From an uncultured Enterobacterales bacterium (GTDB taxonomy: Bacteria; Myxococcota_A; UBA796; UBA2385): a stretch of 64,000 nt of DNA. Numbering within the stretch: position 1 is the first letter of the stretch; each line of letters opens with the position of its first letter. The DNA is taken from contig CAZCUX010000027.1 of the NCBI GenBank assembly GCA_964502005.1, positions 30,219 through 94,218 on the forward strand. Direction: 5' to 3'. This document shows, piece after piece, positions 10,402 to 37,379 of this stretch. Under the pieces are notes generated by a model that saw only the letters and a program-made list of their open reading frames with translations, was not told the origin of the DNA and did not search any database. The position numbers and the translations under genes are program-made.

Positions 10402-10807
10402 CGGGGATGCTCTCCGGTGGGGATTCCAGACCGTGCGGGGGCACCTCCAAACGACCGAAGCGCGCGGGGTACCCAATTCGGTCGGTAAGCCTACCACGCC
10501 GCACGCATCTGAGCAGCCGGGAAGCCGCACCGATTGTTCAGAGTTCTTGAAGAGATCGGCCAGCAGTACATCGCAAATCGGCACGAGGACCACGACTACA
10601 ACCATTCCCACCGTGTGCCCTGGCGCTCGGTTGTGGCTTCACCGAATTCTTTCAACCCAGGGCCTCGGCACCTGGACTTTCGGTTGGGCGCGCAAGCTGC
10701 GCCGAGTCCCCGTCCAATGTCGTTTTCCCGCTCGAATCATTCGCAGCGCTCCAATAGGGTGTCGGAACACGCAGACACCCTTCGGGTTCGCAAGGACGGT
10801 CGCTTCG

Positions 10808-13800
10808 ATGAAAGGGATTCGGCACATCCACTTACACCGCGGCCAGTCCCCCCATCGAAGCGCGGTGGAGATCGCGCTGGTTGAGGTTCGGGCGGGCGGT
10901 CCTGAACCCGATGGCCGCGGGTTTTTGGTGAATGTACGCGTCACAAGAGAAGGAAAGCCCCCCCAAGAGAGCACGCGCACGCCGCTTCCGGTGACGGCTG
11001 CACGCGCGGAGACACTTTGGGAAAACGAGCGAGCACGTCGAAAACAAGAGGGATTTGTCGACGAAAACGGCCCCGCGCCCCCCCGTCTTGTGCCAGCGCC
11101 ACCCGATGTACGCGCGCAGACCATCATTCGGTATCTCGAAACCGACACCGGACCCCGCGACTGGCCGCGCTCGCGCATCATCCAGCGGGCCGGCGACCTG
11201 CGAATTGTCGGCGCTGCACCTGCGCTGGCGCGTCTCGTGCCCTCCACCACGGGCATCGAACGGATTGCGCTCGCATTCGCGCTGGCCCGCATCGCGACCC
11301 CTTCGATTTCCGGCGCCCTCCGCTCCCTCGCCGGCCCCACGGAGCCAGAAACCGTACAACGCTTTGCGCGGGCGGGCTTGTTGGCCATTCCGAACGAGCG
11401 AGCCACCTGCATCGCGACCCTGCTCGATGAACTACCGAGCGCCATCTGCCGCGCAATCCAAGCCTCCGACGCGCACGCGCTCGCGCAGGCTGTCGATGCG
11501 TACCTCGCGTCCCCCGACCCCACCCGTCCGATGGTCTGGGTCACCCTCGCGCTCCTCGATACGCCCGAAGCACGCGACCTCTTGTGCGCACGTCTCCGAA
11601 CGCTGCCCTTGCGCCCACCCCACTGGCGCGCCCTCCGACGTATCGCCAAGCTCGCCGAGCTGCGCGATGACGCGGAAATGCTGGCCATCCTCGCGCATCG
11701 TATCGACAAAACCCGTGCGCGTCCGATGGGGCACCAAGGGTTCATGTTCCAGAATGGGCAATCACGGCGGATTTCCGACATCGTACGTTCGGGAAGCAAC
11801 AACATTGGGTATACGGTTGCGACCCGCACTTGGTTTCGGCGGCACCTGTTGCGGACGCTGCGCTCTCGGGCCGCGGCGGGCGACCGCGCGTATATCGACC
11901 TCGCACTCGCGATTTTGTCCGCACACCACGACGACGCACAACCCAGCTGGCTGGTGGGACATATCCTCCTGGCCCACAGCCTCGAGTGGGCGCCACCCGA
12001 CCGACGCCCTGGCCCCTGGCGACCGCGCCTACGAACCCAAGAACCACACCAAGCTCGAACCGAAGCCTATGCGTCCTTATGGGACGAACACCCCGACGCG
12101 CTCGTGCGTCTCGCATGTGGCGGGCATACCATTGAAGGAGCGCGGGTCGGGTGCGTCGCATTGACCCCACGCACCGACCTCGCGCGCTGGGTCACCCTCC
12201 GCGATGTGCAGCAGCTCTTCCTCGCCAACACCGACCTCCAAGCCAACCTCGCGCTCCAGGCCCTCGCGGCCCTCTGGCAGCAAAGCGCCCCTGACCTCCG
12301 CGTGCTGCTCACGCTCGCGCCCGTTCCCCGCGCCGACGCCCAAGCACGCTTTCGCGCGTGGTTCCCCCAAGCCACCCGCCAGTGGATGTCCCAACCCGAG
12401 GTCTTTGCAGAGCTTTTCTTCTGTCCCGAAGAAGGTCCGCGCCGCCTCGCGACCGACTTGCTCCCCGCTGTCTTGTCGATGCCCGACAGCGCGCTACGTC
12501 TCACCGAAAATATCCTGTCACGGCTGATTTCCACCGACGCCAACGACACCTCCGCGGTTCCGCAGCTCGTCTGCCAATTCGTCGAAACGCACCTGTCACG
12601 CTTCATTTTCGCGCTTCCCCTGGAGACATTGGTGAGCGGCCTCGACGCCCCGCACATCCCGGTCCGGGAAGCCATCAGCCGGTGGTTGGTCCGCCACCCG
12701 ACGCCCGTGTCTGCGTGGCCGCTTTCCTGCGTGCGCGCGTGGATGTCCAGCACGACCCCATCCGTTCGCTGCGACGGAGTTCGCGCATTCCGCCGCTGCA
12801 CAAACGAGACCCAGCGGTCGCTGTGGACACACCTGCTCGAAATATGGGAAGGCTCCGACGCCGATGTACGCGCAATCGCGCGTGGTGTGCTCTCGGATTG
12901 GCTGCCGACCGCGCCCGACTACCGCGCAGAAGTGGCCCAGCAATTGGTCGCCAAGCTCCTTCAAGACGAGCGATGGCCGGAGTTTCACGTCGAGCTGGCC
13001 ACATTTTGGAACGAACAACCGGACCACTTCGCGCTTCCCCTCGCACAGTCGACCATTTTGGCCCTCCTCGACGCACGAGGACGCACGGCGCAGACCGTGG
13101 GCGGCCAATACCTACCGCAGCTGTCGCCCGACACCCTGTCCACCGACCAAGTGCTGGCTCTCGCGAACCATGCCTTGCTCCCCGTACGAACCGTCGCGCA
13201 AATGTGGATAGAAGCGGACATTCCGCGGTGGGCCATGCAAGAAGGCGCGATTTTGGGGCTCATCGATGCGGACTGGCCCGAAACACGGGCGCTCGGCATT
13301 CGCCTCCTCACGCATTTGCGGTCGCAAACGATGGTCGACCCTTACCTCTTGGTCGCCATTTGTGACTCTGCCCAACCGGCCGCACAAGACATCGGACGCA
13401 CCCTGCTCCGGGACTGGCTCGATGACTCCCACAATCCCCAGTGGATGATGTATCTCGCCGAGCACCCGTCCCCCAAGACCCAAGCCTTCGTCGCAGCATG
13501 GGCCATCGAAGTCGCAGCAACCGACCCCCATCGCCTCGAAGCGATGACCCCGTATTTTCGCGCCGTTCTGTTTGGGCTGTCACGCAGCGCTTTGGCAAAA
13601 ACGCGCGTATTTGCCGCCCTTGAAACCGCAGCGATGCATGATGAGATGCTCGCACGCTGGGTTCTGGCGTTGATGGAGGACTGGAGCGGCAGCACGTCCG
13701 TACAAGACCGAGCGCGCGCGATCGCGCTGATGGTGCGCATACGCAGTCGCTTTGGCCTAACGTCCTCCATCGCCAAGGTCGTGCCCGTCCCCAAGAGCAA

Positions 13801-13825
13801 CCGGAGGCTCCGCGATGAAAGTTGA
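10808..13825 (+). CDS. large WGR-like N-terminal domain / alpha-helical repeat protein (MolR/YehI-like); candidate retron accessory protein
   Basis: ATG at 10808. The upstream 125 codons of the ORF are W/C/R/T-rich junk. The N-terminus FLVNVRVTREGKP...AARAETLWENERARRKQEGFVDE fits the WGR pattern with a degenerate W-G-R. The remaining ~900 aa are L/A/R-rich helical repeats. No P-loop, nuclease or TM motif was seen. Confidence 0.75.
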   Translation: MKGIRHIHLHRGQSPHRSAVEIALVEVRAGGPEPDGRGFLVNVRVTREGKPPQESTRTPLPVTAARAETLWENERARRKQEGFVDENGPAPPRLVPAPPDVRAQTIIRYLETDTGPRDWPRSRIIQRAGDLRIVGAAPALARLVPSTTGIERIALAFALARIATPSISGALRSLAGPTEPETVQRFARAGLLAIPNERATCIATLLDELPSAICRAIQASDAHALAQAVDAYLASPDPTRPMVWVTLALLDTPEARDLLCARLRTLPLRPPHWRALRRIAKLAELRDDAEMLAILAHRIDKTRARPMGHQGFMFQNGQSRRISDIVRSGSNNIGYTVATRTWFRRHLLRTLRSRAAAGDRAYIDLALAILSAHHDDAQPSWLVGHILLAHSLEWAPPDRRPGPWRPRLRTQEPHQARTEAYASLWDEHPDALVRLACGGHTIEGARVGCVALTPRTDLARWVTLRDVQQLFLANTDLQANLALQALAALWQQSAPDLRVLLTLAPVPRADAQARFRAWFPQATRQWMSQPEVFAELFFCPEEGPRRLATDLLPAVLSMPDSALRLTENILSRLISTDANDTSAVPQLVCQFVETHLSRFIFALPLETLVSGLDAPHIPVREAISRWLVRHPTPVSAWPLSCVRAWMSSTTPSVRCDGVRAFRRCTNETQRSLWTHLLEIWEGSDADVRAIARGVLSDWLPTAPDYRAEVAQQLVAKLLQDERWPEFHVELATFWNEQPDHFALPLAQSTILALLDARGRTAQTVGGQYLPQLSPDTLSTDQVLALANHALLPVRTVAQMWIEADIPRWAMQEGAILGLIDADWPETRALGIRLLTHLRSQTMVDPYLLVAICDSAQPAAQDIGRTLLRDWLDDSHNPQWMMYLAEHPSPKTQAFVAAWAIEVAATDPHRLEAMTPYFRAVLFGLSRSALAKTRVFAALETAAMHDEMLARWVLALMEDWSGSTSVQDRARAIALMVRIRSRFGLTSSIAKVVPVPKSNRRLRDES

Positions 13826-15488
13826 CCACCGGTATGCTGGACAGAGCGGCGCGCGAACTGGCACGCACCGCTCATTGTTGTCGTTTTCCCCCGATATTTC
13901 CCGCCAGCCAACGTGGTTTCGGGGCACCGTCGCCCAGCCATGGATGTTTCGCGACGGAATGGCCGCACTGTTCGCCGTCGTGTCATCTGACTTGCGTCCC
14001 CGCAGCAAAGACCGCAGCGCATACCTTGCGTGGCGCCACCAGCAGGACGACATCGAATGGGCAGCGACCCTCGCCGCCCTCCCAACAAAGCGCGTCGAGA
14101 GCTTGGCCGCCCTCAAAGACGTCAAGCAAAAACTGAATGCCATTCAGCAGGTCCGCAATGCACGCCAAGGGTCTTTTCTCAGGGCCCAGCGTGCTTATTT
14201 TGATTGGCTGTATACCCACGACCGGGGTGCATGGGTGGTCCTTGACCCCATCATCACGGTCCACCCGGACCAACTGTTCTTCGAGTGCTTTAGCGCAGAC
14301 GAGAGCAGCTACGCACGCTTTACCTGCCAGTACGGCTCCTTTCGGTCGATTTCTGACTTTTCATGCGGCACCACAAACATCGACTTCTCGCGCGATTTGT
14401 CCCGCGCGTTTGAAAAGCTCCGCTCGTATCGAGATACCGAGCTTCTCATCGACCCCTCGGGATTTTCGGTCCATACACACGGGGAAGTGCCGCACTACGA
14501 GAAGAAGATTGACGTTCCCGATTCTTGGGTGCGCGGCTTTTTGCAGGTCAGCGCCGCGATGGGACTTCCCGGCGTTTCTCTTCGCCTGCATCCCATCGAC
14601 CTCCACAATCTGCTGTTTGTGTTGCGCCGACGAATCGAACAGCACGGCCCACGCTCGTTGCGCTTTTGTATCCAGCCCGATGGCGCCATCCATGTCGAAG
14701 TCGAGCCGTTTGCACACCATTTGGTGCTCGCACGCAGCAATGTCATCGGTTCCCTTCCCGCAGAGCCGCTCGAAGTCCGGGTGTGGGGACGGCGCAGACT
14801 TCGGGTGCTCGAACGCCTCTTGCCCCACGCACGGCACATTGACGTGCGCTTACTCGGGAGCGGTCTGCCGAGTTTCTGGAACGTCCTGCTCCCGGGGATG
14901 ACCTTTACGCTCGGGCTCTCCGGCTGGACCGCAAACGATTGGTCACGCCAAGGCGCGTTCGACCTGATGGCGCCTCGTGGAAACACCGACGCACGCACCA
15001 TTTCGCGCGTGACCGAAGCCCTCACGCGCCGCTCTTTTGCGACGGTACCCCAGCTTGTCGCAGAACTGAATGACGATTCAGCGACCATCACAGAGGCCTT
15101 GTTTGGGTCGATACAAGCCGGTCAAGTGATGCTCGATGCCGACCAACAGACCTACCGCGCGCGTCCCTTGTTCCGCGACCCCCTCGACCGCGACGCCTTC
15201 CGCTGGGCCAGTCCACGCGAGGCCGAGGCGCAAGCACTCATCCAAAAAAACGCCGTATTGGTGTTCCACGCCACACCCCAAGGCAACGGCACCGCGCTCA
15301 ACGGGACCCTCTTCGACGCGCGCGTGCAGCGCCACGCTACGGCGCTGCTCGACCAAGATGACCGGATGGTCACAGGCACCTGTACCTGCGCATACTTCCG
15401 GCAAAACAAGCTCCATTATGGCCCGTGCTCGCACATTCTCGCTCTTCGTATCGTGCAGTCGCAACAGCACGGCAAGGCTCGTCCATGA
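13815..15488 (+). CDS. SWIM zinc-finger protein (YehQ-like); candidate retron accessory protein
   Basis: ATG at 13815 lies 7 nt after GGAGG and overlaps the upstream gene by 11 nt. The C-terminus TGTCTCAYFRQNKLHYGPCSHILAL carries a CxCx(n)CxH SWIM signature (15381-15434). Confidence 0.85.
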   Translation: MKVDHRYAGQSGARTGTHRSLLSFSPDISRQPTWFRGTVAQPWMFRDGMAALFAVVSSDLRPRSKDRSAYLAWRHQQDDIEWAATLAALPTKRVESLAALKDVKQKLNAIQQVRNARQGSFLRAQRAYFDWLYTHDRGAWVVLDPIITVHPDQLFFECFSADESSYARFTCQYGSFRSISDFSCGTTNIDFSRDLSRAFEKLRSYRDTELLIDPSGFSVHTHGEVPHYEKKIDVPDSWVRGFLQVSAAMGLPGVSLRLHPIDLHNLLFVLRRRIEQHGPRSLRFCIQPDGAIHVEVEPFAHHLVLARSNVIGSLPAEPLEVRVWGRRRLRVLERLLPHARHIDVRLLGSGLPSFWNVLLPGMTFTLGLSGWTANDWSRQGAFDLMAPRGNTDARTISRVTEALTRRSFATVPQLVAELNDDSATITEALFGSIQAGQVMLDADQQTYRARPLFRDPLDRDAFRWASPREAEAQALIQKNAVLVFHATPQGNGTALNGTLFDARVQRHATALLDQDDRMVTGTCTCAYFRQNKLHYGPCSHILALRIVQSQQHGKARP

Positions 15489-15545
15489 CGCTCCTCTTTC
15501 TTTTTCCCTTTCGTCGTCCAGCGGAGTTCGATACAACAGGAAGGT

Positions 15546-15777
15546 GGGCTGGGGTTGCGCCGTGTGCCTTGCAAACCGAACCGTGCCATCGCGGTTCATG
15601 CCAACGGCTCTTCCCTCCTTCACCGGCCCGGTTTTCACTGGGCGTGGCCTGGGCCATCGCGACGGCTGCCGGTGGGAGTCCTGCCGGACTCAGCCGTCGC
15701 GATGGCCCGTCCCCGCGTCGAGTGAACCGCTCCGGTCTCCCGTGTGTGACGAAGTCTTCTTCGGCGCGCCCCAGCCC
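15546..15777 (+). ncRNA. candidate retron msr-msd non-coding RNA
   Basis: a1 GGGCTGGGGTTGCGCCG (15546-15562) pairs with a2 CGGCGCGCCCCAGCCC (15762-15777). An msr-position hairpin is GAACCG/CGGTTC (15578-15597). An msd-position hairpin spans 15622-15736 with an 18-bp perfect core (15651-15668 / 15691-15708). The element lies in the 472-nt gap directly upstream of a retron-type RT. Confidence 0.6.
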
Positions 15778-15811
15778 CTCCCCCATTCTCTCGTGCCCAA
15801 ACCGCGCACCT

Positions 15812-15843
15812 GATGGGCAGCGCGATGTTCGCGGACGCCCATC
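15812..15843 (+). promoter_or_regulatory. stem-loop between a2 and the RT start codon
   Basis: GATGGGC-AG-CGCGA-TGT-TCGCG-GAC-GCCCATC gives 7 + 5 bp with an internal loop. It lies 118 nt upstream of the RT ATG. Confidence 0.5.
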
Positions 15844-15960
15844 TCCGCAACGCACCCCAAGCGCGCGCCAACACAGCTGCTTTGTGCGGCGCTTGCCGTA
15901 CGCGAGCCGGGGTCCCCATCTGCGAACGGCGGGACGCACACGCGCGCGAGGGGCACAACG

Positions 15961-17487
15961 ATGAGTCCGCCACCTCGTCGCGAAGACGCCCTTCGAGAGC
16001 GCATTCGTGCATCCTCCAAGGCCAAGGTCATCCAAGAAGACATGGCTCGCCTCGGCTTCTGGGGCCAAGCCGAAGACCCACTCGAAGCCGAAGCCCTGCA
16101 CCTCGCCGGGCAGCTCCACGCGCTCGAACGAGAGCTTGTGGCGCTCGACCAGCTCGAAGCGCAAAAGGAGGCGGCCCACAAAGAGCGGCTGCGCGCGGCC
16201 AAAGCGCGCCGGGCCGAAGCGCGGGAACGCCGAGAGAGGGCCCGTCGTGAACGTGCTGCAGCGTGGGCGAGCCGCCAAGCAACCGACATCCTCTTTTTGG
16301 GCGAAGGCGTCAGCGATGGCCTGGCGTCCGCGCGCAAGGGCAACCCCGACACAGTGCGCGCCTATGGGCTGCCCGTGCTCGACTCGATTTCGGAGCTCGC
16401 GCACGTATTGAACGAAACAGTCGGCGGACTTCGCTGGCTTGCGTTTCACCGCGCCGTGAGCCAAACCTCGCACTACACCCGTTTTGCGATTCCCAAAAAG
16501 GCAGGCGGTGAGCGAATCATCTCGGCACCCCTCCCTCGCCTGAAGGCTGCGCAGTCCACCATTGCCGGCTGGCTCTCCGCGGTTCCGCTGCATCCGGCGG
16601 CCCACGGGTTTGTGCCCGGCCGGTCTATTGTCACGAACGCAACGCCCCATGTTGGATGCGCTGTCGTGGTCAACTTCGACCTCGAAGACTTCTTTCCGAG
16701 CATCGACTGGATCCGCGTTCGCGGCATCTTTGAGCAATTGGGCTACGGACGGCCCATCGCGACGGTATTGGCCCTCCTTTGTACAGAGGCCGAGGTCGAG
16801 ACGCTCGAAATCGACGGCAAGCGTTGGTTCGTGCAGACCTCCACGCGGCGACTTCCCCAGGGCTCACCCGCGAGCCCCGTGTTGACCAATCTCTTGTGCC
16901 GCCGCTTGGATGCCCGGTTGGCGGGGCTCGCGTCCCGCCTCCAGTTCACATACACCCGCTACGCCGACGACCTCACGTTTTCCCTTCGCCCCGGCGGCGA
17001 AATACAAAACCTCCATCGGCTACTATACGCATTACCGCGTATTGTGGTCGACGAAAATCTGCGGCTCCACCCCAAAAAGACCCGCATCATGCACAGGGGG
17101 CGCCGCCAGGAGGTCACAGGCTTGGTGGTCAACCAGCGGGTTTCTGTGCCCCGCGAGCAGCTCCATCGGTACCGGGCGGTCGTGCATCAACTTCGTCACC
17201 GTGGGCCACATGGGCTTCAATGGGGGAGCGCAGACACCGTATTTGGAGGACTCCTCGGGTTTGCCGCCTTTGTTCATATAGTGGACGCGGAAAAAGGAAC
17301 GGCGATGCTGCGCGAAGTACGCGCGCTCGGCGCACAACACGGCTGGACACCGCCTCGGCGGCCATCTCCCGCAGCTCCCGACGCACCTGCGCCAGAGGAC
17401 GAAGAAGGGACTCCGCCTCCCGCATCCACACCGATGCTGGAGTATTTGCTGGGCGGGACAAAGAAGTGGTGGCAGTTCTGGCGTTGA
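15961..17487 (+). CDS. retron-type reverse transcriptase with an N-terminal coiled-coil extension
   Basis: GAGGGG lies 7 nt before the ATG. Motifs seen: FAIPKKAGGERIISAP, SIVTNATPH (NAxxH), VVNFDLEDFFPSI, LPQGSPASPVLTNL, YTRYADDLTFS (YADD), LHPKKTRIM and RRQEVTGLVVN (VTG). Confidence 0.9.
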   Translation: MSPPPRREDALRERIRASSKAKVIQEDMARLGFWGQAEDPLEAEALHLAGQLHALERELVALDQLEAQKEAAHKERLRAAKARRAEARERRERARRERAAAWASRQATDILFLGEGVSDGLASARKGNPDTVRAYGLPVLDSISELAHVLNETVGGLRWLAFHRAVSQTSHYTRFAIPKKAGGERIISAPLPRLKAAQSTIAGWLSAVPLHPAAHGFVPGRSIVTNATPHVGCAVVVNFDLEDFFPSIDWIRVRGIFEQLGYGRPIATVLALLCTEAEVETLEIDGKRWFVQTSTRRLPQGSPASPVLTNLLCRRLDARLAGLASRLQFTYTRYADDLTFSLRPGGEIQNLHRLLYALPRIVVDENLRLHPKKTRIMHRGRRQEVTGLVVNQRVSVPREQLHRYRAVVHQLRHRGPHGLQWGSADTVFGGLLGFAAFVHIVDAEKGTAMLREVRALGAQHGWTPPRRPSPAAPDAPAPEDEEGTPPPASTPMLEYLLGGTKKWWQFWR

Positions 17488-17827: not shown

Positions 17828-19540
17828 ATGGCCGCCACCTCACGTCCGTGGGTGCGGCGGCCCAGGGGAGTCCCCAACGTGCGATTTGTCCGTCCTGTGG
17901 TGCAAACCGTCTCCGACGTTACCGGCCGGGTCCGCGACCTCAACCGGCTACAAGAGGTCGCGCGGGTTCTCGTGGGCCACGGTCTCGGAATGTTGGTCGC
18001 CGGCCTCGACATTCCCGGCATTCGTGCGGTGGGGCGCACCTACGAGTCCACCCCCGAGCGCCTGAAAAATGCGCTGGAGCACCTCGGCCCGACCTATGTG
18101 AAGCTGGGACAGGTGATGTCCACGCGGCCCGACATTCTGCCTGCGTCCTACATCGACGCACTGCAGGAGCTACAAGACGACGTGAAACCCATCGCGCTCG
18201 AAGACGTTCAGGTGCAGCTCGACCAAGAACTCGGCCCCAACTGGAAAGACCACCTCGCGTGGTTCGACGAGACCCCCCTCGCGACGGCGTCTATCGCCCA
18301 AGTACACCGCGCACGGCTCATTGACGGCACAGACGTCGTTCTCAAGGTGCAGCGCCCGGGCATCGCCCCCAAAATCCGCTCCGACCTCAATATTCTCAAC
18401 ATCTTGGCGCGACGGGCGTTGGTGGAGTATCCCGAGGCCAAAGCATTCGACCCCGTGGGCGTTCTCGACGAGTTTGAGCACTCCATCCTCTCCGAGCTGG
18501 ACTTCGCGCAAGAAGCCAAAAATATGGACCGCGTCGCCCGAAACTTTGGCGACGCAGATTTTGTGCGGGTTCCCAAGGTTGTCGCCGCGCTTTCGGGACG
18601 AACGGTGCTGTGCATGGAGTTTCTCGCGGGCCACAAAATCCGTGACGCCCGCGATGCCGGCTACGACATGAAGGTCGTCGGCGAACGCTACCTCCGCGTC
18701 GCCTACGACATGCTGTTCCAGCATGGGTTCTTCCACGGTGACCTACACCCCGGCAACGTCGTCGTGCTGCCCAACGAAGTCATCGGCTTGCTCGACTTCG
18801 GCATGGTCGGCCGCATGACGCCGGAGATGCGCAACAACATCATCTCCATCATCTTCGCGCTGCAACGCGGCGACTACCGAACCATCGCGCGATTGTTCTA
18901 CGACATCGCCATCAAAGAGGACCGGGTCGACTTTCAGGCGGTAGAGACTGCCACCATCGACATCATGGAGCGCCATTGGACCGGCAACTCCGTCCGCGAC
19001 ATGCAGCTTGGTCCATTCGTGGTCGACCTGGCCGCCGCCGCCGCGCGTCACGGCGCAAAAGTGCCGCGCTCCTATACGATGTTCTTCAAGGCCATCCTGA
19101 CGAGCGAAGGGCTGTCCAAGACGCTGATTGAAGAGCTGGACCCCATCGCCGCCGCCGAGCCGTACATTCGGGCGCACCTTCGAGACACCTTCGGCGAAGA
19201 GCGGCTCCAGCAGGACGCTTTTTACCATTTTGTCACGTTGTCGTCGTTGGGACGGCGACTCCCCACGGTGGCGTCACAGGTACTCGACGACATCGAGCGC
19301 CAGCAGCTTCGCTTCGACAGCCGCGACCCCGACCGTCCAGAGACACTACGACGCATCGACAACATGGTGAATCGGACCATCACCGCAGCCATGACATTGG
19401 GTGCATTTGCTTGCGGCACCGCCCTCCTCGTAGGCAACTCGCTATCGTTGTTCCAGTTTGTGCTGTCGATTTTGTTTTATGTCGTCGGCGCCGGTGCCTT
19501 CGCGGTCACCGCGGGGTTGGTGCTTCGGAGCCGGGGCTGA
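17828..19540 (+). CDS. ABC1/UbiB family atypical kinase with a C-terminal TM pair
   Basis: LGPTYVKLGQVMSTRPDILPASYIDALQELQDDV, IAQVHRA and FHGDLHPGNV. Confidence 0.9.
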   Translation: MAATSRPWVRRPRGVPNVRFVRPVVQTVSDVTGRVRDLNRLQEVARVLVGHGLGMLVAGLDIPGIRAVGRTYESTPERLKNALEHLGPTYVKLGQVMSTRPDILPASYIDALQELQDDVKPIALEDVQVQLDQELGPNWKDHLAWFDETPLATASIAQVHRARLIDGTDVVLKVQRPGIAPKIRSDLNILNILARRALVEYPEAKAFDPVGVLDEFEHSILSELDFAQEAKNMDRVARNFGDADFVRVPKVVAALSGRTVLCMEFLAGHKIRDARDAGYDMKVVGERYLRVAYDMLFQHGFFHGDLHPGNVVVLPNEVIGLLDFGMVGRMTPEMRNNIISIIFALQRGDYRTIARLFYDIAIKEDRVDFQAVETATIDIMERHWTGNSVRDMQLGPFVVDLAAAAARHGAKVPRSYTMFFKAILTSEGLSKTLIEELDPIAAAEPYIRAHLRDTFGEERLQQDAFYHFVTLSSLGRRLPTVASQVLDDIERQQLRFDSRDPDRPETLRRIDNMVNRTITAAMTLGAFACGTALLVGNSLSLFQFVLSILFYVVGAGAFAVTAGLVLRSRG

Positions 19541-19562
19541 CCCATCAAACGCCCGCGGCCCT

Positions 19563-19673
19563 GAACCACCATTCATTTGCCGTAAACCAGCCGTGCTGCG
19601 TTGTTCTATGCAAATGCAACGAAGAAAGGCAAAGGAGAACAGACGCGCGAACGCGCGAAATGAATGGCGGTTC
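19563..19673. repeat. long-range inverted repeat in a locally AT-richer convergent intergenic region
   Basis: GAACCACCATTCATTT (19563-19578) matches the reverse complement of AAATGAATGGCGGTTC (19658-19673) at 15 of 16 positions. A tandem ACGCGCGA x2 lies at 19643-19658. The T-rich tract TTCATTTGTTGTTTTTGCTG follows. Confidence 0.6.
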
Positions 19674-19740
19674 ATTTGTTGTTTTTGCTGCGTGCTGGAC
19701 TGTTCTCCTCTCTTCCGTCCCAAATTTCCAGCGCAGCCAC

Positions 19741-20421
19741 TCAGTCACCGATGACGCCGCCGTCTCCATTGACCTCGCCCTCATCAAAATCCGCGACATC
19801 TTCGAGTGACAGGCCCTCTTCACGCGACGCGCGGAAATGCGTTTCAATAGACACGTCCAACGGGAGGGTAACGTCGCCAACGACACATCCAGCCGCGTAG
19901 GTCGTCACGACAACGCCGTTCCGAAGTGCCGTGGCGTCGTCATTGAAGTCAACGAGAATCTGCCGTGAAACGCTGTCTTCGCACACCGACCCGACGAAGT
20001 GATGTGCGCCCAGCACCACATCGAGCGCGCCGTCCGACAACATGCCCCCCATGCGGTCGCCTGCATGACCCGGCGTTTCATCGAGGTTCACCCAGTTCAC
20101 GAGGGGGTGATTGTCTCCATACGGAAGGTCAACGTAAACGGTGCTCCACAAGCCCTCTGCATGGCATCCGGCCTCTTTGTCCCCACAAAACGCCGACAGT
20201 GGAACCGAGACGCCACCCACGTCGAGGGTGACGTCTTCGCCCGGCGAGGTCTCGGCGACCACGTCCCTGTCCACCGTAACCTGCCACTTTGCCGCGTACT
20301 GGGGCGAAAAGGCGCCGGTGTAGTCGATGTCGCCCTTGGAGAACAAGCCGCCGCCGGAGTCGCCCCCGAGGTCGATGCACGCTACGGAAAGAACGGAAAG
20401 CAGCACGGTGGCGCGGGTCAT
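19741..20421 (-). CDS. hypothetical lipoprotein
   Basis: ATG at 20421 lies 5 nt after GGAGA. MTRATVLLSVLSVAC lipobox. Confidence 0.6.
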   Translation of the reverse strand: MTRATVLLSVLSVACIDLGGDSGGGLFSKGDIDYTGAFSPQYAAKWQVTVDRDVVAETSPGEDVTLDVGGVSVPLSAFCGDKEAGCHAEGLWSTVYVDLPYGDNHPLVNWVNLDETPGHAGDRMGGMLSDGALDVVLGAHHFVGSVCEDSVSRQILVDFNDDATALRNGVVVTTYAAGCVVGDVTLPLDVSIETHFRASREEGLSLEDVADFDEGEVNGDGGVIGD

Positions 20422-20475
20422 GGGGGTCTCCTTCGCTTGAGGGTGGACCCCCGACGCGATGTGCCCCCGCGCCAT

Positions 20476-20772
20476 TCACTCGTGGGGAGTACCGGCTGCG
20501 TCTCGCAGGGCCGAAAGTCGCTCTTCCGCCACGCGTCGCTCGGCGAGGACGGCAACAAGAACAGCAATCACGGCTTGTTCTGGCATACCACGCAGATGGT
20601 GGAGGAGGTCGCTTGCACAGTATTGCAAGCCCACGCGGGTGAGGCCGGGCATATCGAGGGGCGTCGTGAGGTCTCCGCGATACAGCGACCGCAGCAAGGT
20701 TTTCAACGCACTGTCTTCTACGGGGACAAGAGCACGGCCCAATTCAAAGGGACGCGCGGCAGGACGGGACAT
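20476..20772 (-). CDS. small hypothetical protein (99 aa)
   Basis: MSRPAARPFELGRALVPVEDSALKTLLRSLY... has helical, coding-like composition. GGAG lies 4 nt before the ATG. The stop abuts the downstream lipoprotein ORF. The longer 228-aa ORF-track version overlaps mnmG antisense. Confidence 0.4.
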   Translation of the reverse strand: MSRPAARPFELGRALVPVEDSALKTLLRSLYRGDLTTPLDMPGLTRVGLQYCASDLLHHLRGMPEQAVIAVLVAVLAERRVAEERLSALRDAAGTPHE

Positions 20773-20851
20773 AGCTGCTCCATTACGGATGGCCGGATAT
20801 CCGCTCTGCGACGGAAGTGCCGCGTCTCGCAGCGGCCAACGTGGAGTTCCG

Positions 20852-22732
20852 ATGGTTTCACCGTCTCCTGCTTTTGATGCCGATGTTCTCGTACTGGGTG
20901 GCGGCCACGCAGGCGCCGAAGCGGCGGCTGCCGCTGCCCGCATTGGCGCACGCGTAATTCTCGTCACCTTATCCCGCGATGGCATTGGTCGGCTGAGCTG
21001 CAATCCTGCGGTGGGAGGCCTCGCGAAAGGGTGTCTCGTACGCGAAATCGACGCCCTCGGAGGTCTTATGGCGCAAGTGGCCGACCGGGCCACGATCCAA
21101 TTTCGGCGCCTCAACACCCGAAAAGGCCTCGCTGTGCAAGCCAGCCGCGCCCAAGTTGACATCCACCACTACCCGCGCGAAATGCAAGCGGCCCTCGCGC
21201 AGTACCCAAGCCTGACCATCGTAGAAGGGGAAGCACGCGGCATTTTGGTGGAGGACGGCCGATGTCGCGGTCTGCGCCTCGCCGATGGCCGCACGCTCAC
21301 CGCGCGGGCCACGGTGCTCACGACCGGCACCTTCTTGGGCGGCGTGCTGCACCAAGGAGACCAACAAGAGCGCGGCGGACGAATTGGTGAGGCCGTCTCG
21401 GGGGCATTGTCGGAGAGTCTACGCGCCCACGGGGTCACGCTCGCGCGTCTCAAGACCGGCACGCCACCCCGAATCCACGTCGACTCCCTCGACCTCTCCG
21501 CGCTCGAAGTGCAAGGCGACACTGTGCCCATCGGCGAAGCGCGGTTTTCGTTTCTGCCGACCGACACGCGCCTGCCCCAGCGCGACTGCTGGATTGCGCA
21601 CACAGGCCCGAACACCCACACCATCGTGCGGGATGCCCTCGTCCATTCGCCATTGTTCAGCGGCGCGATCACCGGCCGCGGTCCACGCTATTGTCCGTCG
21701 ATTGAAGACAAAGTCACGCGGTTCCCCGACCGGGACCACCACCAGCTCTTCCTCGAACCCGAAGGCCTCGACACCCCGCGGGTGTATATCAACGGCCTGT
21801 CCACGAGTCTTCCGCCAGCGCTCCAAGAAGCCCTGGTACGCAGCATTCCCGGCCTGCAGAACGCGCAGATTCTCCAGCATGGCTACGCGGTGGAGTACGA
21901 CTTCTCCGACCCCCGCGACCTCGGCCCTGACCTCCAGCACAAACGTCTGCCGGGCCTGTATTTGGCGGGGCAGCTCAACGGCACCACCGGCTATGAAGAA
22001 GCGGCGGCCCAAGGGCTTGTGGCCGGCGCTTCCGCTGCCTCGGGCGAGCCGTTGGTATTTGGTCGTGATGAAGCGTACATCGGTGTTCTCATTGACGACC
22101 TCATCAGCCGCGGCGTCGGCGGGGAGCCGTACCGGATGTTTTCGAGCCGGGCCGAGCATCGCTTGTTGCTCCGGGAAGACAACGCCGACCGCCGCCTGAC
22201 CCCCGCGGGACGCGCCCGTGGCTTGGTCGACGACCACCGCTGGGCCGCGTTTTCGGCGAAGGTGGAGGCCATCGCAGCGTTGCAAGCCTGGTGCGAACAA
22301 ACGCCCGTGTTGGCGGATGCGCCTACGCTCGCCCGATTTATCGCGGTCGGGCACGCGCCGCCTCGCAACAAAATAACGGTAGCGGCGTTGTTGTTGCGGC
22401 CCGAGGTGGACTGGTCGGCGCTCGCCCTCCTGGTAGACGACCGCCCGGCCGTTGCGGCGGAAGTAGCGGAGCAAGTGCTGACCGACATCAAATACGCGGC
22501 TTATCTTACGCGTGCGAAGGACCGCGCTGCGCGCACCCGCGAGATGTCGTCGGTGGCCATCCCCCATGATTTTGAGTACCAACACCCCGGCGTCTCCCAT
22601 GAGGTCGCCGAAAAACTGCGAAGCGCGCGCCCGCCCACCTTGGCCGCGGCGTCCCGAATTCCCGGCGTAACACCAGCAGCACTCGACGTTCTCGCGATTC
22701 ATCTCGCCCGACGTTTTGCGGAGGCACCTTGA
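20852..22732 (+). CDS. mnmG: tRNA uridine 5-carboxymethylaminomethyl modification enzyme MnmG (GidA)
   Basis: ATG at 20852 lies 6 nt after GGAG. DVLVLGGGHAGAEAA FAD motif, GPRYCPSIEDK and GQLNGTTGYEEAAAQG. Confidence 0.95.
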   Translation: MVSPSPAFDADVLVLGGGHAGAEAAAAAARIGARVILVTLSRDGIGRLSCNPAVGGLAKGCLVREIDALGGLMAQVADRATIQFRRLNTRKGLAVQASRAQVDIHHYPREMQAALAQYPSLTIVEGEARGILVEDGRCRGLRLADGRTLTARATVLTTGTFLGGVLHQGDQQERGGRIGEAVSGALSESLRAHGVTLARLKTGTPPRIHVDSLDLSALEVQGDTVPIGEARFSFLPTDTRLPQRDCWIAHTGPNTHTIVRDALVHSPLFSGAITGRGPRYCPSIEDKVTRFPDRDHHQLFLEPEGLDTPRVYINGLSTSLPPALQEALVRSIPGLQNAQILQHGYAVEYDFSDPRDLGPDLQHKRLPGLYLAGQLNGTTGYEEAAAQGLVAGASAASGEPLVFGRDEAYIGVLIDDLISRGVGGEPYRMFSSRAEHRLLLREDNADRRLTPAGRARGLVDDHRWAAFSAKVEAIAALQAWCEQTPVLADAPTLARFIAVGHAPPRNKITVAALLLRPEVDWSALALLVDDRPAVAAEVAEQVLTDIKYAAYLTRAKDRAARTREMSSVAIPHDFEYQHPGVSHEVAEKLRSARPPTLAAASRIPGVTPAALDVLAIHLARRFAEAP

Positions 22733-23313
22733 CGACTCCCCTCGATGGCACCGTCCGCGGCCGCACCGACCTCGCGCGGCATGCCGCCGTAGACGCAGCA
22801 CATCTCCGTTTGCTCGAAAAATGGCGCAAGGCCATGGACTTGGTTGGTCCCGGTCCCCTGCAGCCCCATTTTGACGACTGCCGCCAAGCGATTGCAGGCT
22901 TGAATGCCGCAGGCCCTTGGGCCGACTTGGGCAGCGGCGCCGGGTTTCCTGGCATCGCGCTGGCCGGCATGTACCCCGACGCCGACGTTGTCTTGGTGGA
23001 GAGCCGCCAAAAGCGCGCGCTGTTCTTGGACAAGGTCGTCGCAGAGGCCAAGCTGACCAACGCGACCGTGAAGAACCAACGCAGCGAAGACCTCGCCGAC
23101 GGCACCTTCGTCGGGATTGTCAGCCGCGCGTACCGACCGCCGGAGCTGGTGATTGCCGACGCCGAACGCCTCCTTGCGCCCCATGGCCGTCTTGTGCTGC
23201 TGCTCGGAAGTCAGGCGGAAATTGCGGTGCCATCCGGATGGAAGATGGTAGACAAAATCGGCTACAACCTTTCAGACGGCGCGCGCGCGCGAATGGTGCT
23301 CGAGCGAACCTAA
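22729..23313 (+). CDS. rsmG: 16S rRNA (guanine527-N7)-methyltransferase RsmG (GidB)
   Basis: TTG start overlaps the mnmG stop. LLEKWRKAMDLVG and the DLGSGAGFPGIALA SAM motif. Canonical mnmG-rsmG synteny. Confidence 0.9.
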   Translation: MTTPLDGTVRGRTDLARHAAVDAAHLRLLEKWRKAMDLVGPGPLQPHFDDCRQAIAGLNAAGPWADLGSGAGFPGIALAGMYPDADVVLVESRQKRALFLDKVVAEAKLTNATVKNQRSEDLADGTFVGIVSRAYRPPELVIADAERLLAPHGRLVLLLGSQAEIAVPSGWKMVDKIGYNLSDGARARMVLERT

Positions 23314-23322
23314 GGAATTCCC

Positions 23323-36149: not shown

Positions 36150-37379
36150 ATGCAACCGCACCGCATTCTGGGTGGATTGTTGTGCCTCGGCTGGGTCGGC
36201 TGCGCGCCGCCCAATCCCGCCGAAGGCTTCATCAACCTCGAACAGTTTGTCGATGAAGACGGACCCAGCACCAACCAACGGTACGTCGAGCTGATGAACG
36301 CAGCCGAGCACGACCTGCGCGTTGCGTTGCCGGCGTTCTCCGACGTGGCCCTCGCGACCGCGTTTGCAGATGCCGTCGACCGCGGCGTCGATGCGCGGCT
36401 GGTCATCGACTACGACAGCGCCGAAGAAGAAGGTGTTGTCGCGCTTGCCGAGCGGGGCATCGATTGTATGCTCGCCGAAGACACGCTGGCGATGCGTCTG
36501 GAGGGCATGGAGCCCCCCTGCATTCTGGCCGACGACGGCGTGCAATACTTTGACTTCGGCAACAACGTCGAAGTGACCGTGCCTTCGCGTGCTATCCAGA
36601 TGACCCACGCATTTGCCGTCGCCGACCGCGTGAACATCGTGCGGTCCAACCGGGCAGGCGACACCTTGGGCGGCACACGGCTTACTTTTGTCGGCCAAGG
36701 CGAAGACCTCGGCGACGACCTCTCCTGGGAGCACCAGCAGCTTCACGGCGGCACCGACGCTTCGACGCTCACTGCGTTTTCGTCGTCGGCCAAGTCGATT
36801 ACCGACAACCGCTGGATGTATCCGACCCAAACCCCCCTCGTCGTCGAGATGTGGGTCGGCCCCCAAGAGCGCGTCATCAAGCGCGTAATTGACGCCATCT
36901 ACCGCGCACGCAGCGGTGTGTACGTGCTCACCGACGACTTCGTAGATGTCAGCGTTGCGCGCGCGCTCGACCAAAAGGCGGCAGACGGCTTCAATGTGCA
37001 AGCCATCGTCGGTCCCCGCTTTGGCGACACCCGCCCGGAGCTTTCGCGGACCTTCTACGAGACCGCCAACATCCAGAAGTACCGCGTGACCGATGAAAGC
37101 GTCGAGACGGTACCCACCATCGTCCTGGTGGACTGGGATGCCGACCGCGTCGGTGGTCGCCCCATGACGCAAGCCTTCTTGCTCACCCACGACATCGCGT
37201 CCACCAGCCGCTATATCGGCTCGGGCTCCACCATCGAAGTGCTCGACCAATCGGACCAGCTCATGGACGGCAACCTGTTCGTGCTCGATGCATGGGGCGC
37301 CGACGCCGACAATTCGCCCGAAATCGGCCAGATTACCGATGTGCTGCTCGCCTACCGCGATCTCGCAGAGGAAATGTGA
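36150..37379 (+). CDS. PLD-like domain lipoprotein with degenerate HKD motifs
   Basis: GGAG lies 5 nt before the ATG. LLCLGWVGC lipobox. The layout parallels the next gene, but the HxK(x)4D positions read THAFAVAD and LTHDIAST, with the Lys lost. Confidence 0.55.
   Translation: MQPHRILGGLLCLGWVGCAPPNPAEGFINLEQFVDEDGPSTNQRYVELMNAAEHDLRVALPAFSDVALATAFADAVDRGVDARLVIDYDSAEEEGVVALAERGIDCMLAEDTLAMRLEGMEPPCILADDGVQYFDFGNNVEVTVPSRAIQMTHAFAVADRVNIVRSNRAGDTLGGTRLTFVGQGEDLGDDLSWEHQQLHGGTDASTLTAFSSSAKSITDNRWMYPTQTPLVVEMWVGPQERVIKRVIDAIYRARSGVYVLTDDFVDVSVARALDQKAADGFNVQAIVGPRFGDTRPELSRTFYETANIQKYRVTDESVETVPTIVLVDWDADRVGGRPMTQAFLLTHDIASTSRYIGSGSTIEVLDQSDQLMDGNLFVLDAWGADADNSPEIGQITDVLLAYRDLAEEM

What the first reader, a model, noticed from the sequence alone, without database searches (positions are those of the whole stretch)
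15546..15777. Canonical msr-msd layout: 16-bp a1/a2 pairing flanking a small stem-loop and a ~115-nt hairpin with an 18-bp perfect core
Seen directly in the sequence:
- a1 is GGGCTGGGG-TT-GCGCCG (15546-15562). The reverse complement of a2 (15762-15777, CGGCGCGCCCCAGCCC) is GGGCTGGGG-C-GCGCCG. This gives 15 Watson-Crick pairs plus one G-U, with one bulged U.
- A hairpin GAACCG/CGGTTC (15578-15583 / 15592-15597) sits in the msr position.
- A long imperfect hairpin spans 15622-15736. Its core is GGGCCATCGCGACGGCTG (15651-15668) against CAGCCGTCGCGATGGCCC (15691-15708).
- The core is extended apically by CCGG/CCGG plus GG/CC around an AGT loop.
- It is extended basally by GGCGTGG/CCGCGTC (two G-U), TTCACT/AGTGAA, CGG/CCG and ACCGG/CCGGT.
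The order a1, short stem-loop, long stem-loop, a2, upstream of the RT, is the established retron ncRNA architecture. Unpaired G residues just 3' of a1 (15564, 15566) are candidates for the 2'-OH branching guanosine.
Inference: cDNA priming would begin opposite about 15761. The msDNA would then be roughly 140-160 nt, in the size class of myxobacterial msDNAs of the Mx162 kind.
Basis: partly seen in the sequence, partly recalled or inferred. Interest (0 to 1): 0.85.

Follow-up and report, generated by a model that had tools for sequence, protein, structure and literature searches.

The report
Type XIII retron template RNA gene
This is the non-coding RNA gene of a retron, a bacterial reverse-transcriptase system that copies part of this RNA into a small hairpin DNA; it belongs to an already catalogued type (XIII), so the finding is real and well supported but ordinary.

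Summary
The described structure is in the sequence exactly as stated. It folds far better than shuffled sequence (z = -7.9). It lies between a SWIM-finger gene and a reverse transcriptase gene. These two genes and an upstream WGR/HEAT gene match the PADLOC type XIII retron models at E = 1e-161 to 1e-193.

Homologous loci from metagenomes and myxobacterial genomes keep the same RNA. The long hairpin, the small hairpin and the a1/a2 closing stem all show compensatory base changes. So this is the msr-msd RNA of a type XIII retron in an uncultured Myxococcota-like bacterium.

Six type XIII retrons with the same conserved motifs have published sequenced RT-DNAs. In all six, DNA synthesis starts at the C just 5' of a conserved GAAG, and it ends 11-13 nt before a conserved YCAC.

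Mapped onto this window:
- The template runs from C15750 to C15608, giving an msDNA of about 143 nt.
- The branching G is most likely G15571, in the invariant CCUUGCAA, not G15564 or G15566.

The RNA belongs to the widespread CCUUGCAA subfamily, not the Mx162/Sa163 subfamily. It is a new member of a known kind. The effector mechanism of type XIII remains unknown.

The parts
10808..13825 (+). Type XIII accessory gene 1: WGR-like / HEAT-ARM repeat protein. The ORF is open from 10433, but the likely start is Met126, at 10808.
   Evidence: PADLOC WGR_XIII E = 3.2e-178 and HEAT-ARM_XIII E = 1e-24. It is 40% identical over the full length to the equivalent gene of L017, and that alignment starts at residue 126. 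No Pfam domain reaches threshold. No PDB relative was found.
13815..15488 (+). Type XIII accessory gene 2: SWIM zinc-finger protein with a DEDE-like motif. It overlaps the upstream gene by 11 nt.
   Evidence: PADLOC SWIM_XIII E = 2.3e-193. Pfam SWIM E = 7e-4, score 19.4 against a curated cut-off of 19.6. CxCx12CxH starts at residue 523 and a DEDE-like motif spans residues 144-229. It is 56% identical to the L017 homologue. No PDB relative was found.
15532..15537 (+). Possible -10-like hexamer TACAAC, 9 nt upstream of a1 (weak, inferred).
   Evidence: It aligns with a conserved TACACT in the closest relatives (A1). The sigma-70 consensus scan found nothing in 15300-16100.
15546..15562 (+). a1, the 5' arm of the closing stem. 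It can be extended to 15543.
   Evidence: The pairing of each locus's own a1 and a2 is the best of 15 possible partners in 11 of 15 loci.
15567..15574 (+). Invariant CCUUGCAA motif. C15568-U15570 form the 5' strand of a mini-helix with A15752-G15754. G15571 is the most likely 2'-OH branching guanosine.
   Evidence: The motif is invariant in A2 and A4. It occurs upstream of the RT in 15 loci and is unique in the window. In six type XIII retrons the RT-DNA starts at the C opposite this site.
15578..15597 (+). msr stem-loop: 8 bp with a CCAU loop. Presumed RT recognition hairpin.
   Evidence: 100% paired with 2 compensatory pairs in the close clade. 98.8% paired with 5 of 8 pairs compensatory across phyla.
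15608..15750 (-). Predicted msd: the template for an msDNA of about 143 nt (142-144). The msDNA has the sequence of the minus strand, with its 5' G copied from C15750 and its 3' end at about C15608.
   Evidence: The ends were mapped by homology to six sequenced type XIII RT-DNAs. The DNA fold is -49.4 kcal/mol, z = -6.3.
15622..15736 (+). Long msd stem-loop with an 18-bp perfect core at 15651-68/15691-708.
   Evidence: In the core, 16 of 19 pairs are compensatory and 99% of cells are paired in the close clade. Across phyla, 19 of 19 core pairs and 11 of 21 basal pairs are compensatory.
15750..15754 (+). Conserved CGAAG. C15750 is the predicted first template base, G15751 lies opposite the branching G, and AAG is the 3' strand of the mini-helix.
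   Evidence: It is conserved in A2 and A4. It lies 178-189 nt after the CCUUGCA motif in all 18 sequences that have both motifs. Census RT-DNA 5' ends support the start position.
15762..15777 (+). a2, the 3' arm of the closing stem. It can be extended to 15781.
15961..17487 (+). Retron reverse transcriptase, 508 aa, with an N-terminal extension.
   Evidence: PADLOC RT_XIII E = 7.8e-161. Pfam RVT_1 covers residues 177-388. NATPH is at 226, YADD at 334 and VTG at 385. The best PDB relatives are the Ec86 and Ec67 retron RTs.

Best explanation
The region 15543-15781 is the msr-msd non-coding RNA gene of a complete type XIII retron. The gene order is WGR/HEAT gene, SWIM gene, ncRNA, RT, all on the + strand, in the chromosome of an uncultured Myxococcota-like bacterium.

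Shown here:
- The RNA closes on itself through a1/a2.
- It carries a conserved 8-bp msr hairpin and a long msd hairpin.
- These helices are maintained by compensatory changes in relatives.

Inferred from homologous type XIII retrons with sequenced RT-DNA:
- The RT binds the msr part.
- It uses the 2'-OH of G15571 as primer. A CUU/AAG mini-helix, offset from a1/a2 by a 5 x 7 nt internal loop, holds this G opposite G15751.
- It copies the RNA from C15750 leftwards and stops at about C15608.
- RNase H removes the template. What remains is a branched RNA-DNA molecule whose DNA of about 143 nt folds into the long hairpin.

Inferred only by analogy with other retron types:
- The RT-msDNA complex holds the SWIM/DEDE nuclease-like protein and the WGR/HEAT protein inactive until phage infection disturbs it.
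For: Structure:
- The fold has z = -7.85. The core is a perfect 18-bp repeat.

Gene context:
- PADLOC gives RT_XIII 7.8e-161, SWIM_XIII 2.3e-193 and WGR_XIII 3.2e-178.
- The RT has the retron motifs NAxxH, YADD and VTG.
- Mestre et al. 2020 (PMC7736814) define type XIII by exactly these three proteins plus a distinct ncRNA, and place Mx162, Mx65, Sa163 and Ne144 in it.

Conservation:
- Eleven fetched loci with RTs 52-63% identical show two upstream genes of the same sizes and order, an intergenic gap of about 280-370 nt, then the RT. Two shorter contigs hold only part of it (L020, L025).
- The gap aligns to the window RNA.
- RNAalifold predicts 56 pairs, 29 of them with compensatory changes.
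- In the count of structure pairs no shuffle reaches the observed covariation in either alignment. The long-hairpin core has 16/19 and 19/19 compensatory pairs. The msr hairpin is 99-100% paired.
- Each locus's own a1/a2 duplex is the best of 15 partners in 11 of 15 loci. In three of the other four the better partner comes from a close relative's locus; in L003 two unrelated partners score better.
- The motif pair CCUUGCA ... CGAAG, 178-189 nt apart, lies upstream of the RT from Myxococcota to Cyanobacteria, Acidobacteriota and Campylobacterota.

Mechanism:
- Six type XIII retrons with the same motifs made RT-DNA in E. coli at 0.04-2.2 times the Eco1 yield.
- Their sequenced RT-DNAs all start at the C 5' of GAAG (in the two Comamonadaceae retrons the motif is a variant, GACGAGAAG/GATGAGAAC) and end 11-13 nt 5' of YCAC (PMC10849725 supplement; mapping; alignment to the window).
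- In several homologues the G of CCUUGCAA is the only G between a1 and the msr hairpin.
Against: - There are no transcript or msDNA data for this locus.
- No Rfam family matches.
- No sigma-70 consensus promoter was found upstream.
- The mini-helix is only 3 bp here (CUU/AAG) and is nearly invariant, so covariation cannot test it.
- The branching G is assigned indirectly, from DNA 5' ends in relatives. Post-synthetic trimming of those DNAs is not excluded.
- A review gives the Mx162/Sa163 priming G as lying in CAGC, at or just after the end of the a1 arm (PMC6868368).
- An anti-phage role for type XIII was not found tested in the searchable literature.
- The locus sits among housekeeping genes (ubiB, mnmG, rsmG). 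Type XIII shows signs of vertical inheritance. Both leave room for a non-defence role.
Confidence: 0.9

Rival explanations
1. It is the same retron RNA, but with the classical geometry the first reader proposed. The branching G lies directly after a1 (G15564 or G15566). Priming starts at the base just 5' of a2 (about 15759-15761). The msDNA would then be about 152-154 nt.
For: G15564 and G15566 are conserved within the closest clade.
Against: In six type XIII retrons sharing the CCUUGCA and CGAAG motifs, the sequenced RT-DNA starts 8-40 nt upstream of a2, at the C before GAAG. In Tenacibaculum, the two cyanobacterial retrons and L002 there is no G between a1 and CCUUG. The positions equivalent to 15564 and 15566 are A, T or C in L023, L026, L027, L028 and L029.
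Confidence: 0.2
2. It is a decayed or domesticated relic. The RNA structure is conserved, but the system no longer makes msDNA, or the msDNA serves a housekeeping role rather than defence.
For: The locus is flanked by ubiB, mnmG and rsmG. No tRNA or integrase-like gene was found in the ORFs that were scanned. Mestre et al. report a moderate correlation of type XIII with host 16S and suggest domestication. The spacer between a2 and the RT start is about 180 nt, against 26-52 nt in relatives.
Against: All three ORFs are intact and full-length compared with homologues. The RT catalytic and retron-specific motifs are intact. All conserved RNA motifs and helices are intact.
Confidence: 0.07
3. It is not a retron RNA at all. 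It would be a structured leader or attenuator of the RT gene, a terminator of the SWIM gene, or a repeat element that happens to be palindromic.
For: No Rfam match. GC-rich DNA forms many hairpins.
Against: It is homologous, motif by motif, to ncRNAs experimentally shown to template RT-DNA. Covariation covers three separate helices. There is no terminator-like T tract. It is a single copy in the window.
Confidence: 0.02

Closest known systems
Type XIII retrons with the CCUUGCAA-type ncRNA tested in the retron census (Khan et al., PMC10849725). Examples: Comamonas serinivorans (terminal 1703), Comamonadaceae NML120219 (1710), Tenacibaculum dicentrarchi (1687), Chitinophaga eiseniae (1673), two cyanobacteria (1731, 1732), Hahella chejuensis (1718), Methylobacterium nodulans (1765).
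   Same: - Same RT clade (clade 10, type XIII).
- Same RNA layout and conserved motifs: CUUGCA, an msr hairpin with an (A/U)UCGCC 3' arm, YCAC at the hairpin base, and CGAAG.
- Same spacing of the motifs.
- Measured RT-DNAs of 136-151 nt, against 143 nt predicted here.
   Different: - The window RNA is GC-rich, with its own a1/a2 and hairpin-core sequences.
- The mini-helix is 3 bp (CUU/AAG, followed by U) instead of 4 bp (CCUU/AAGG).
- The RT is at most 63% identical to anything in the protein collection apart from its own near-identical cluster.
- The host is an uncultured Myxococcota-like lineage.
Retron-Sau1 (Sa163) and Retron-Mxa1 (Mx162) of Stigmatella aurantiaca and Myxococcus xanthus
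   Same: - Same retron type (XIII) according to Mestre et al.
- RT with an N-terminal extension.
- Same overall order: a1, msr, long msd hairpin, a2, RT.
- Myxobacterial host lineage.
   Different: - The Sa163 ncRNA is 279 nt, with a1/a2 arms that I count as about 33 nt, against 16-17 nt here.
- It lacks CCTTGCAA and CGAAG.
- Its priming G lies in CAGC.
- Its msDNA is 162-163 nt, against about 143 nt here.
Retron-Nex2 (Ne144) of Nannocystis exedens
   Same: It is type XIII. Its msDNA of 144 nt, as its name indicates, is almost the size predicted here.
Retron-Eco1 (Ec86), type II-A3
   Same: - General mechanism: a1/a2 stem, branching G opposite a G, template starting at the next base 5'. In the census entry the RT-DNA GTCAG... 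starts just before G-TAAGGG.
- The RT is the best solved-structure relative, E = 1e-39.
   Different: - Different RT clade, with no N-terminal extension.
- Different effector (a nucleoside deoxyribosyltransferase-like protein, from my own knowledge).
- An 86-nt msDNA.
- The branching G lies directly at the end of a1/a2, with no internal loop or mini-helix.

Membership tests
Retron (RT plus msr-msd ncRNA) | Reverse transcriptase with the retron-specific NAxxH (region X) and VTG (region Y) motifs and a YxDD catalytic site | tested here: met
   NATPH at residue 226, YADD at 334 and VTG at 385. Pfam RVT_1 E = 1.8e-24. The nearest solved structures are retron RTs.
Retron (RT plus msr-msd ncRNA) | Adjacent non-coding region, on the same strand, closed by terminal inverted repeats a1/a2 | tested here: met
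   15546-15562 pairs with 15762-15777, with 15 Watson-Crick pairs and 1 G-U. Each homologue keeps its own complementary ends, with duplex energies of -36 to -45 kcal/mol. The cognate partner is the best in 11 of 15 loci.
Retron (RT plus msr-msd ncRNA) | One to three short msr hairpins followed by a long msd stem-loop, conserved as structure | tested here: met
   RNAalifold finds 29 of 56 pairs compensatory. The count of structure pairs gives 0 of 500 shuffles reaching the observed covariation in both the close and the cross-phylum alignments.
Retron (RT plus msr-msd ncRNA) | Conserved priming guanosine next to a helix and opposite the template start | tested here: inconclusive
   G15571 is invariant, follows the CUU/AAG mini-helix and faces G15751 next to the predicted first template base. 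The assignment is by homology, and G15564 and G15566 are not excluded.
Retron (RT plus msr-msd ncRNA) | Production of a 2'-5' branched RNA-linked msDNA | not testable with these tools
   Needs expression and nucleic-acid analysis. Shown only for homologous type XIII pairs in E. coli.
Type XIII retron (Mestre et al. 2020, RT clade 10) | RT belongs to clade 10 / RT_XIII | tested here: met
   PADLOC RT_XIII E = 7.8e-161 (534 bits). The next best type-specific models reach 246 bits or less.
Type XIII retron (Mestre et al. 2020, RT clade 10) | Linked protein with a DEDE motif and a C-terminal SWIM finger, CxCx12CxH (cluster 114) | tested here: met
   PADLOC SWIM_XIII E = 2.3e-193. The motifs were found by pattern search.
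Type XIII retron (Mestre et al. 2020, RT clade 10) | Preceding WGR-like / HEAT-ARM repeat protein (cluster 216) | tested here: met
   PADLOC WGR_XIII E = 3.2e-178 and HEAT-ARM_XIII E = 1e-24. Pfam itself detects no WGR or HEAT domain in this copy.
Type XIII retron (Mestre et al. 2020, RT clade 10) | Type XIII ncRNA | tested here: met
   It aligns motif by motif with ncRNAs listed as type XIII in the census table. The published consensus figure itself was not available for comparison.
Type XIII retron (Mestre et al. 2020, RT clade 10) | Extended N-terminus of the RT | tested here: met
   The RVT_1 domain starts at residue 177 of 508. The feature is described for Mx162, Mx65, Sa163 and Ne144 in PMC6868368.
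Mx162/Sa163-type ncRNA (subfamily within type XIII) | Long a1/a2 (about 33-34 nt), a priming G in CAGC at or just after the end of a1, and sequence similarity to the Sa163 RNA | tested here: not met
   a1/a2 is 16-17 nt here, and there is no CAGC after a1. Sa163 lacks CCTTGCAA and CGAAG.
Any Rfam 15 RNA family | Covariance-model match at the gathering score | tested here: not met
   There were 0 matches in the whole window. Only chance-level hits (E of about 1 or more) appeared in 15400-16000.

The most novel reading that the evidence does not exclude
In this large subfamily of type XIII retrons, initiation may not take place at the end of the long a1/a2 stem, as in textbook retrons. It may take place at a separate, nearly invariant 3-4 bp mini-helix (CCUU/AAGG), set off from a1/a2 by an internal loop of variable size. 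In addition, this chromosomal, apparently vertically inherited system next to ubiB, mnmG and rsmG may use its SWIM/DEDE and WGR/HEAT partners for something other than abortive-infection defence. Neither point is excluded by the evidence. The first may already be implicit in published consensus figures that I could not see.
Probability: 0.2. Interest if true: 0.5.

Novelty: new member of a known kind. Interest (0 to 1): 0.3.

Why it matters
This adds a complete, intact type XIII retron from an uncultured Myxococcota-like lineage. Its RT is at most 63% identical to any other in the protein collection. Template boundaries and branch point are now predicted to the nucleotide.

Type XIII is widespread (third most abundant group in a 2026 metagenome survey). 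It includes Mx162, the first msDNA ever described. Even so, its SWIM/DEDE and WGR/HEAT partners have no solved structure and no tested mechanism.

A GC-rich member with a long, stable msd hairpin could serve as a further test case for that open question, or as a donor scaffold for RT-DNA production. The RNA itself holds no surprise.

Tried and rejected
- **Rfam.** Searches at the gathering score and at permissive thresholds found nothing meaningful.
- **Promoter and terminator scan.** The sigma-70 and terminator consensus scan of 15300-16100 found nothing. Whether the RNA has its own promoter or is read through from the SWIM gene is therefore open.
- **Genome-contig scan.** It returned only distant RT relatives (46% identity or less) and no source genome. 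The exact RT is known only from a Logan contig; a member of its 90%-identity cluster is listed from NCBI and Logan.
- **Obtaining Mx162.** I tried to reach it through a second protein search seeded with the Melittangium RT. Neither Mx162 nor Sa163 was among the top 120 hits. I used the Sa163 RNA printed in the census supplement instead.
- **Mestre et al. supplement.** It is not held as text, so the published type XIII consensus structure could not be compared directly.
- **a1/a2 in a column-wise alignment.** This failed because the bulges differ between loci: only 64% of cells were paired. I replaced it with per-locus duplex calculations and a cognate versus non-cognate test.
- **Branch point directly after a1.** I considered this, partly because Archangium has CAGT there. 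I ranked it second because of the census RT-DNA 5' ends and the lack of a conserved G.
- **The 183-nt a2-RT spacer.** It was checked for structure and is not significant, z = -1.8.
- **Cluster look-up for organism names.** It gave none. Taxonomy rests on MnmG similarity to Myxococcota and Deltaproteobacteria MAGs at 64-72% identity.
- **Structure prediction of the accessory proteins.** Not attempted. Their homologues came from fetched loci, not from the protein search, so they could not be submitted, and single-sequence models are unreliable.
Full report
**1. The observation**

- a1 (15546-15562) and a2 (15762-15777) form 15 Watson-Crick pairs, one U-G pair and one bulged U.
- A small hairpin lies at 15578-15597.
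- A long imperfect hairpin spans 15622-15736. Its core is a perfect 18-nt inverted repeat (I1).

An unconstrained RNA fold of 15540-15785 reproduces this layout with a free energy of -144.7 kcal/mol. Shuffled sequences give -103.9 +/- 5.2, so z = -7.85, and none of 200 shuffles folds as well.

**2. The surroundings**

The structure lies in a 472-nt gap between two genes on the same strand.
- Downstream, 15961-17487 encodes a 508-aa reverse transcriptase. Pfam RVT_1 covers residues 177-388. The retron-specific motifs NATPH and VTG and the catalytic YADD are present.
- Upstream, 13815-15488 encodes a 557-aa protein. It ends in a CxCx12CxH SWIM finger and carries a DEDE-like motif.
- Before that, overlapping by 11 nt, is a gene of about 1005 aa. 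Its ORF is open from 10433, and its likely start is 10808.

Against PADLOC these three proteins match RT_XIII (7.8e-161), SWIM_XIII (2.3e-193) and WGR_XIII (3.2e-178), with an additional HEAT-ARM_XIII hit. Mestre et al. 2020 define type XIII retrons by exactly this set of proteins plus a distinct ncRNA. They place Mx162, Mx65, Sa163 and Ne144 in it (PMC7736814).

The RT's nearest solved structures are retron RTs (Ec86, Ec67). The two accessory proteins have no solved relative.

The flanks are ordinary chromosomal genes: ubiB, mnmG, rsmG and an amidase. There is no tRNA in the window.

MnmG is most similar (64-72%) to proteins named as coming from Myxococcota or Deltaproteobacteria MAGs. The exact RT sequence occurs only on a Logan metagenome contig. 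The host is therefore an uncultured Myxococcota-like bacterium. This is a weak inference.

**3. Relatives and covariation**

The closest RTs are 58-63% identical. I fetched 13 loci for RTs 52-63% identical. They include Melittangium boletus, Archangium lansingense and a Myxococcales MAG. Eleven of them show two upstream genes of the same sizes and order, a gap of about 280-370 nt, then the RT; L020 and L025 are short contigs that hold only part of it. The gaps align with the window RNA.

The msr part is nearly invariant in sequence: CCTTGCAA, the hairpin, CATGC and CTTCAC. The a1/a2 arms and the core of the long hairpin differ in sequence but stay complementary.

- RNAalifold on 11 sequences predicts 56 pairs, 29 of them with compensatory changes.
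- On the 7-sequence close-clade alignment:
  - The long-hairpin core has 16 of 19 pairs with changes on both sides, and 99% of cells are paired.
  - The msr hairpin is 100% paired.
  - No shuffle and no slid register comes near the observed covariation.
- On a cross-phylum alignment that includes published type XIII ncRNAs:
  - The msr hairpin has 5 of 8 compensatory pairs.
  - The base of the long hairpin has 11 of 21.
  - The core has 19 of 19.
- a1/a2 could not be scored column-wise because the bulges differ between loci.
  - Each RNA closes through its own ends.
  - In a 15 x 15 test the cognate 3' arm is the best partner in 11 loci.
  - In three of the other four the better partner comes from a close relative's locus; in L003 two unrelated partners score better.

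The motif pair CCUUGCA ... CGAAG, 178-189 nt apart, lies upstream of the RT in cyanobacterial, Acidobacteriota and Sulfurovum loci as well. A variant occurs in Polaribacter. No Rfam family covers this RNA.

**4. Where the DNA starts and stops**

The supplement of the retron census (Khan et al., PMC10849725) prints ncRNAs and sequenced RT-DNAs for retrons that its table lists as clade 10 / type XIII.

Six of them share the window's motifs and made RT-DNA in E. coli at 0.04-2.2 times the Eco1 yield. They are from Chitinophaga, Tenacibaculum, Comamonas, a Comamonadaceae bacterium and two cyanobacteria.

I mapped the printed RT-DNAs back onto their ncRNAs.
- In all six, the first template base is the C immediately 5' of GAAG. 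In the two Comamonadaceae the motif is the variant GACGAGAAG/GATGAGAAC.
- The last template base lies 35-37 nt after the G of CUUGC (47 nt in Chitinophaga, whose msr region is about 10 nt longer).
- The last template base also lies 11-13 nt before the YCAC at the base of the long hairpin.
- The RT-DNAs are 136-151 nt long.
- The PDF-derived text has occasional single-letter errors, so positions are good to about 1 nt.

In the alignment with the window, these landmarks fall on C15750 and on 15607-15609. The predicted msDNA is therefore the reverse complement of 15608-15750, 143 nt long (142-144). As DNA it folds into the long hairpin with 14-nt single-stranded tails on each side: -49.4 kcal/mol, z = -6.3.

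**5. The branching G**

In retrons the priming G follows a helix and faces the base next to the first template base. The census entry for Ec86 shows this rule.

In this subfamily the helix next to the template start is not a1/a2. It is a mini-helix, CCUU/AAGG. In the window it is C15568-U15570 with A15752-G15754, with G15566-C15756 possible beyond a C-U mismatch. It puts G15571 opposite G15751, next to the first template base C15750.

Several observations favour G15571.
- It is invariant in every homologue.
- In Tenacibaculum, the two cyanobacterial retrons and L002 it is the first G after a1.
- The positions equivalent to G15564 and G15566 vary: A, T or C in L023, L026-L029.
- The loop between a1/a2 and the mini-helix is 5 x 7 nt here, but varies from about 4 to more than 20 nt per side elsewhere.

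There is counter-evidence. A review says that the a1 arm contains, or ends immediately 5' of, the priming G, and that in Mx162 and Sa163 this G lies in CAGC (PMC6868368). The Sa163 RNA printed in the census is 279 nt long with arms of about 33 nt. It has CAGC at positions 34 and 40 and lacks CCTTGCAA and CGAAG. It is thus a divergent subfamily of type XIII RNA. Its geometry need not transfer to this one.

**6. How it most likely works**

Shown here:
- A structured RNA gene conserved with the RT.
- Helices kept by compensatory change.
- An intact retron RT and intact type XIII partner genes.

Inferred from experimentally characterised homologues:
- The RT recognises the msr part and primes from the 2'-OH of G15571.
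- It copies C15750 to about C15608.
- It leaves a branched RNA-DNA molecule with a hairpin DNA of about 143 nt.
- The accessory genes are not needed for DNA synthesis. The census bacterial vectors for RT-DNA production presumably carried only the ncRNA and the RT.

Inferred only by analogy with other retron types:
- The RT-msDNA complex restrains the SWIM/DEDE protein and the WGR/HEAT protein until phage infection. Mestre et al. predict the SWIM/DEDE protein to be nuclease-like or transposase-derived.

I found no experimental test of this for type XIII in the searchable literature. The housekeeping neighbourhood and the reported vertical inheritance leave a non-defence role open.

**7. Comparison, novelty and verdict**

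- The closest known systems are the type XIII retrons with the CCUUGCAA-type RNA tested in the census.
- Mx162 and Sa163 are the same retron type, but their RNA belongs to a different subfamily.
- Ne144 has almost the predicted msDNA size, but its sequence could not be compared.
- All defining features of a retron and of type XIII that can be tested in silico are met.
- The 2'-5' branch and msDNA production cannot be tested here.

This is a new member of a known kind. It is a correct and well-described finding, with two positional details revised, and of modest interest. Its main value is as a further intact example of a widespread retron type whose effector mechanism is still unknown.

Noticed in passing
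window 15778-15960: The spacer between a2 and the RT start codon is about 180 nt. In the six closest relatives it is only 26-52 nt, and the extra sequence does not align with them. It is GC-rich but not significantly structured (z = -1.8). Its origin is unexplained.
   Followed up: partly
window 10433-10807: The mechanical ORF of the WGR/HEAT gene starts at GTG 10433. Homology to relatives begins only at Met126 (10808), so the first 125 codons are probably not translated.
   Followed up: yes
L019 4377-4460, L021/L022 5649-5725, L023 2643-2716, L024 2646-2722: In these close relatives a conserved hairpin, CGGACA-N5-TGTCCG, and a TACACT box lie between the SWIM stop codon and a1. The window lacks the hairpin and has TACAAC at the place of the box. 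This could be a terminator-plus-promoter arrangement for the ncRNA.
   Followed up: no
L027 1-995 and L028 1-1009 (Melittangium boletus, Archangium lansingense): In these myxobacterial type XIII loci an additional gene precedes the three-gene module. It encodes a WGR domain fused to a beta-propeller (474 aa). The window and its closest relatives have no such gene.
   Followed up: no
window 17828-25131: Immediately downstream of the retron lie ubiB (ABC1 kinase), an unannotated 244-aa ORF on the opposite strand, then mnmG (gidA), rsmG (gidB) and an adenylate/guanylate cyclase gene. In relatives the retron module sits in other neighbourhoods (zinc alcohol dehydrogenase and Tim44-like genes, or a sulfatase). 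The conserved unit is therefore just the three genes plus the RNA.
   Followed up: partly
window 20459-20866: The mnmG ORF as listed has an N-terminal extension of about 140 aa before the GIDA domain. Homologues are 617-627 aa, so the true start is probably near 20850.
   Followed up: partly
window 37292-39157: A 621-aa protein combines two PLD-like phosphodiesterase domains with a lamin-tail domain. It is not near the retron and I did not examine it further.
   Followed up: no
census supplement, terminal 1795 (Sa163 ncRNA, 279 nt): The Sa163 RNA has two CAGC sites, with the G at positions 34 and 40. The review's statement that the priming G lies in CAGC therefore does not by itself identify which G is used. 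Counting with the published sizes as I recall them fits G34, directly after a 33-nt a1.
   Followed up: partly
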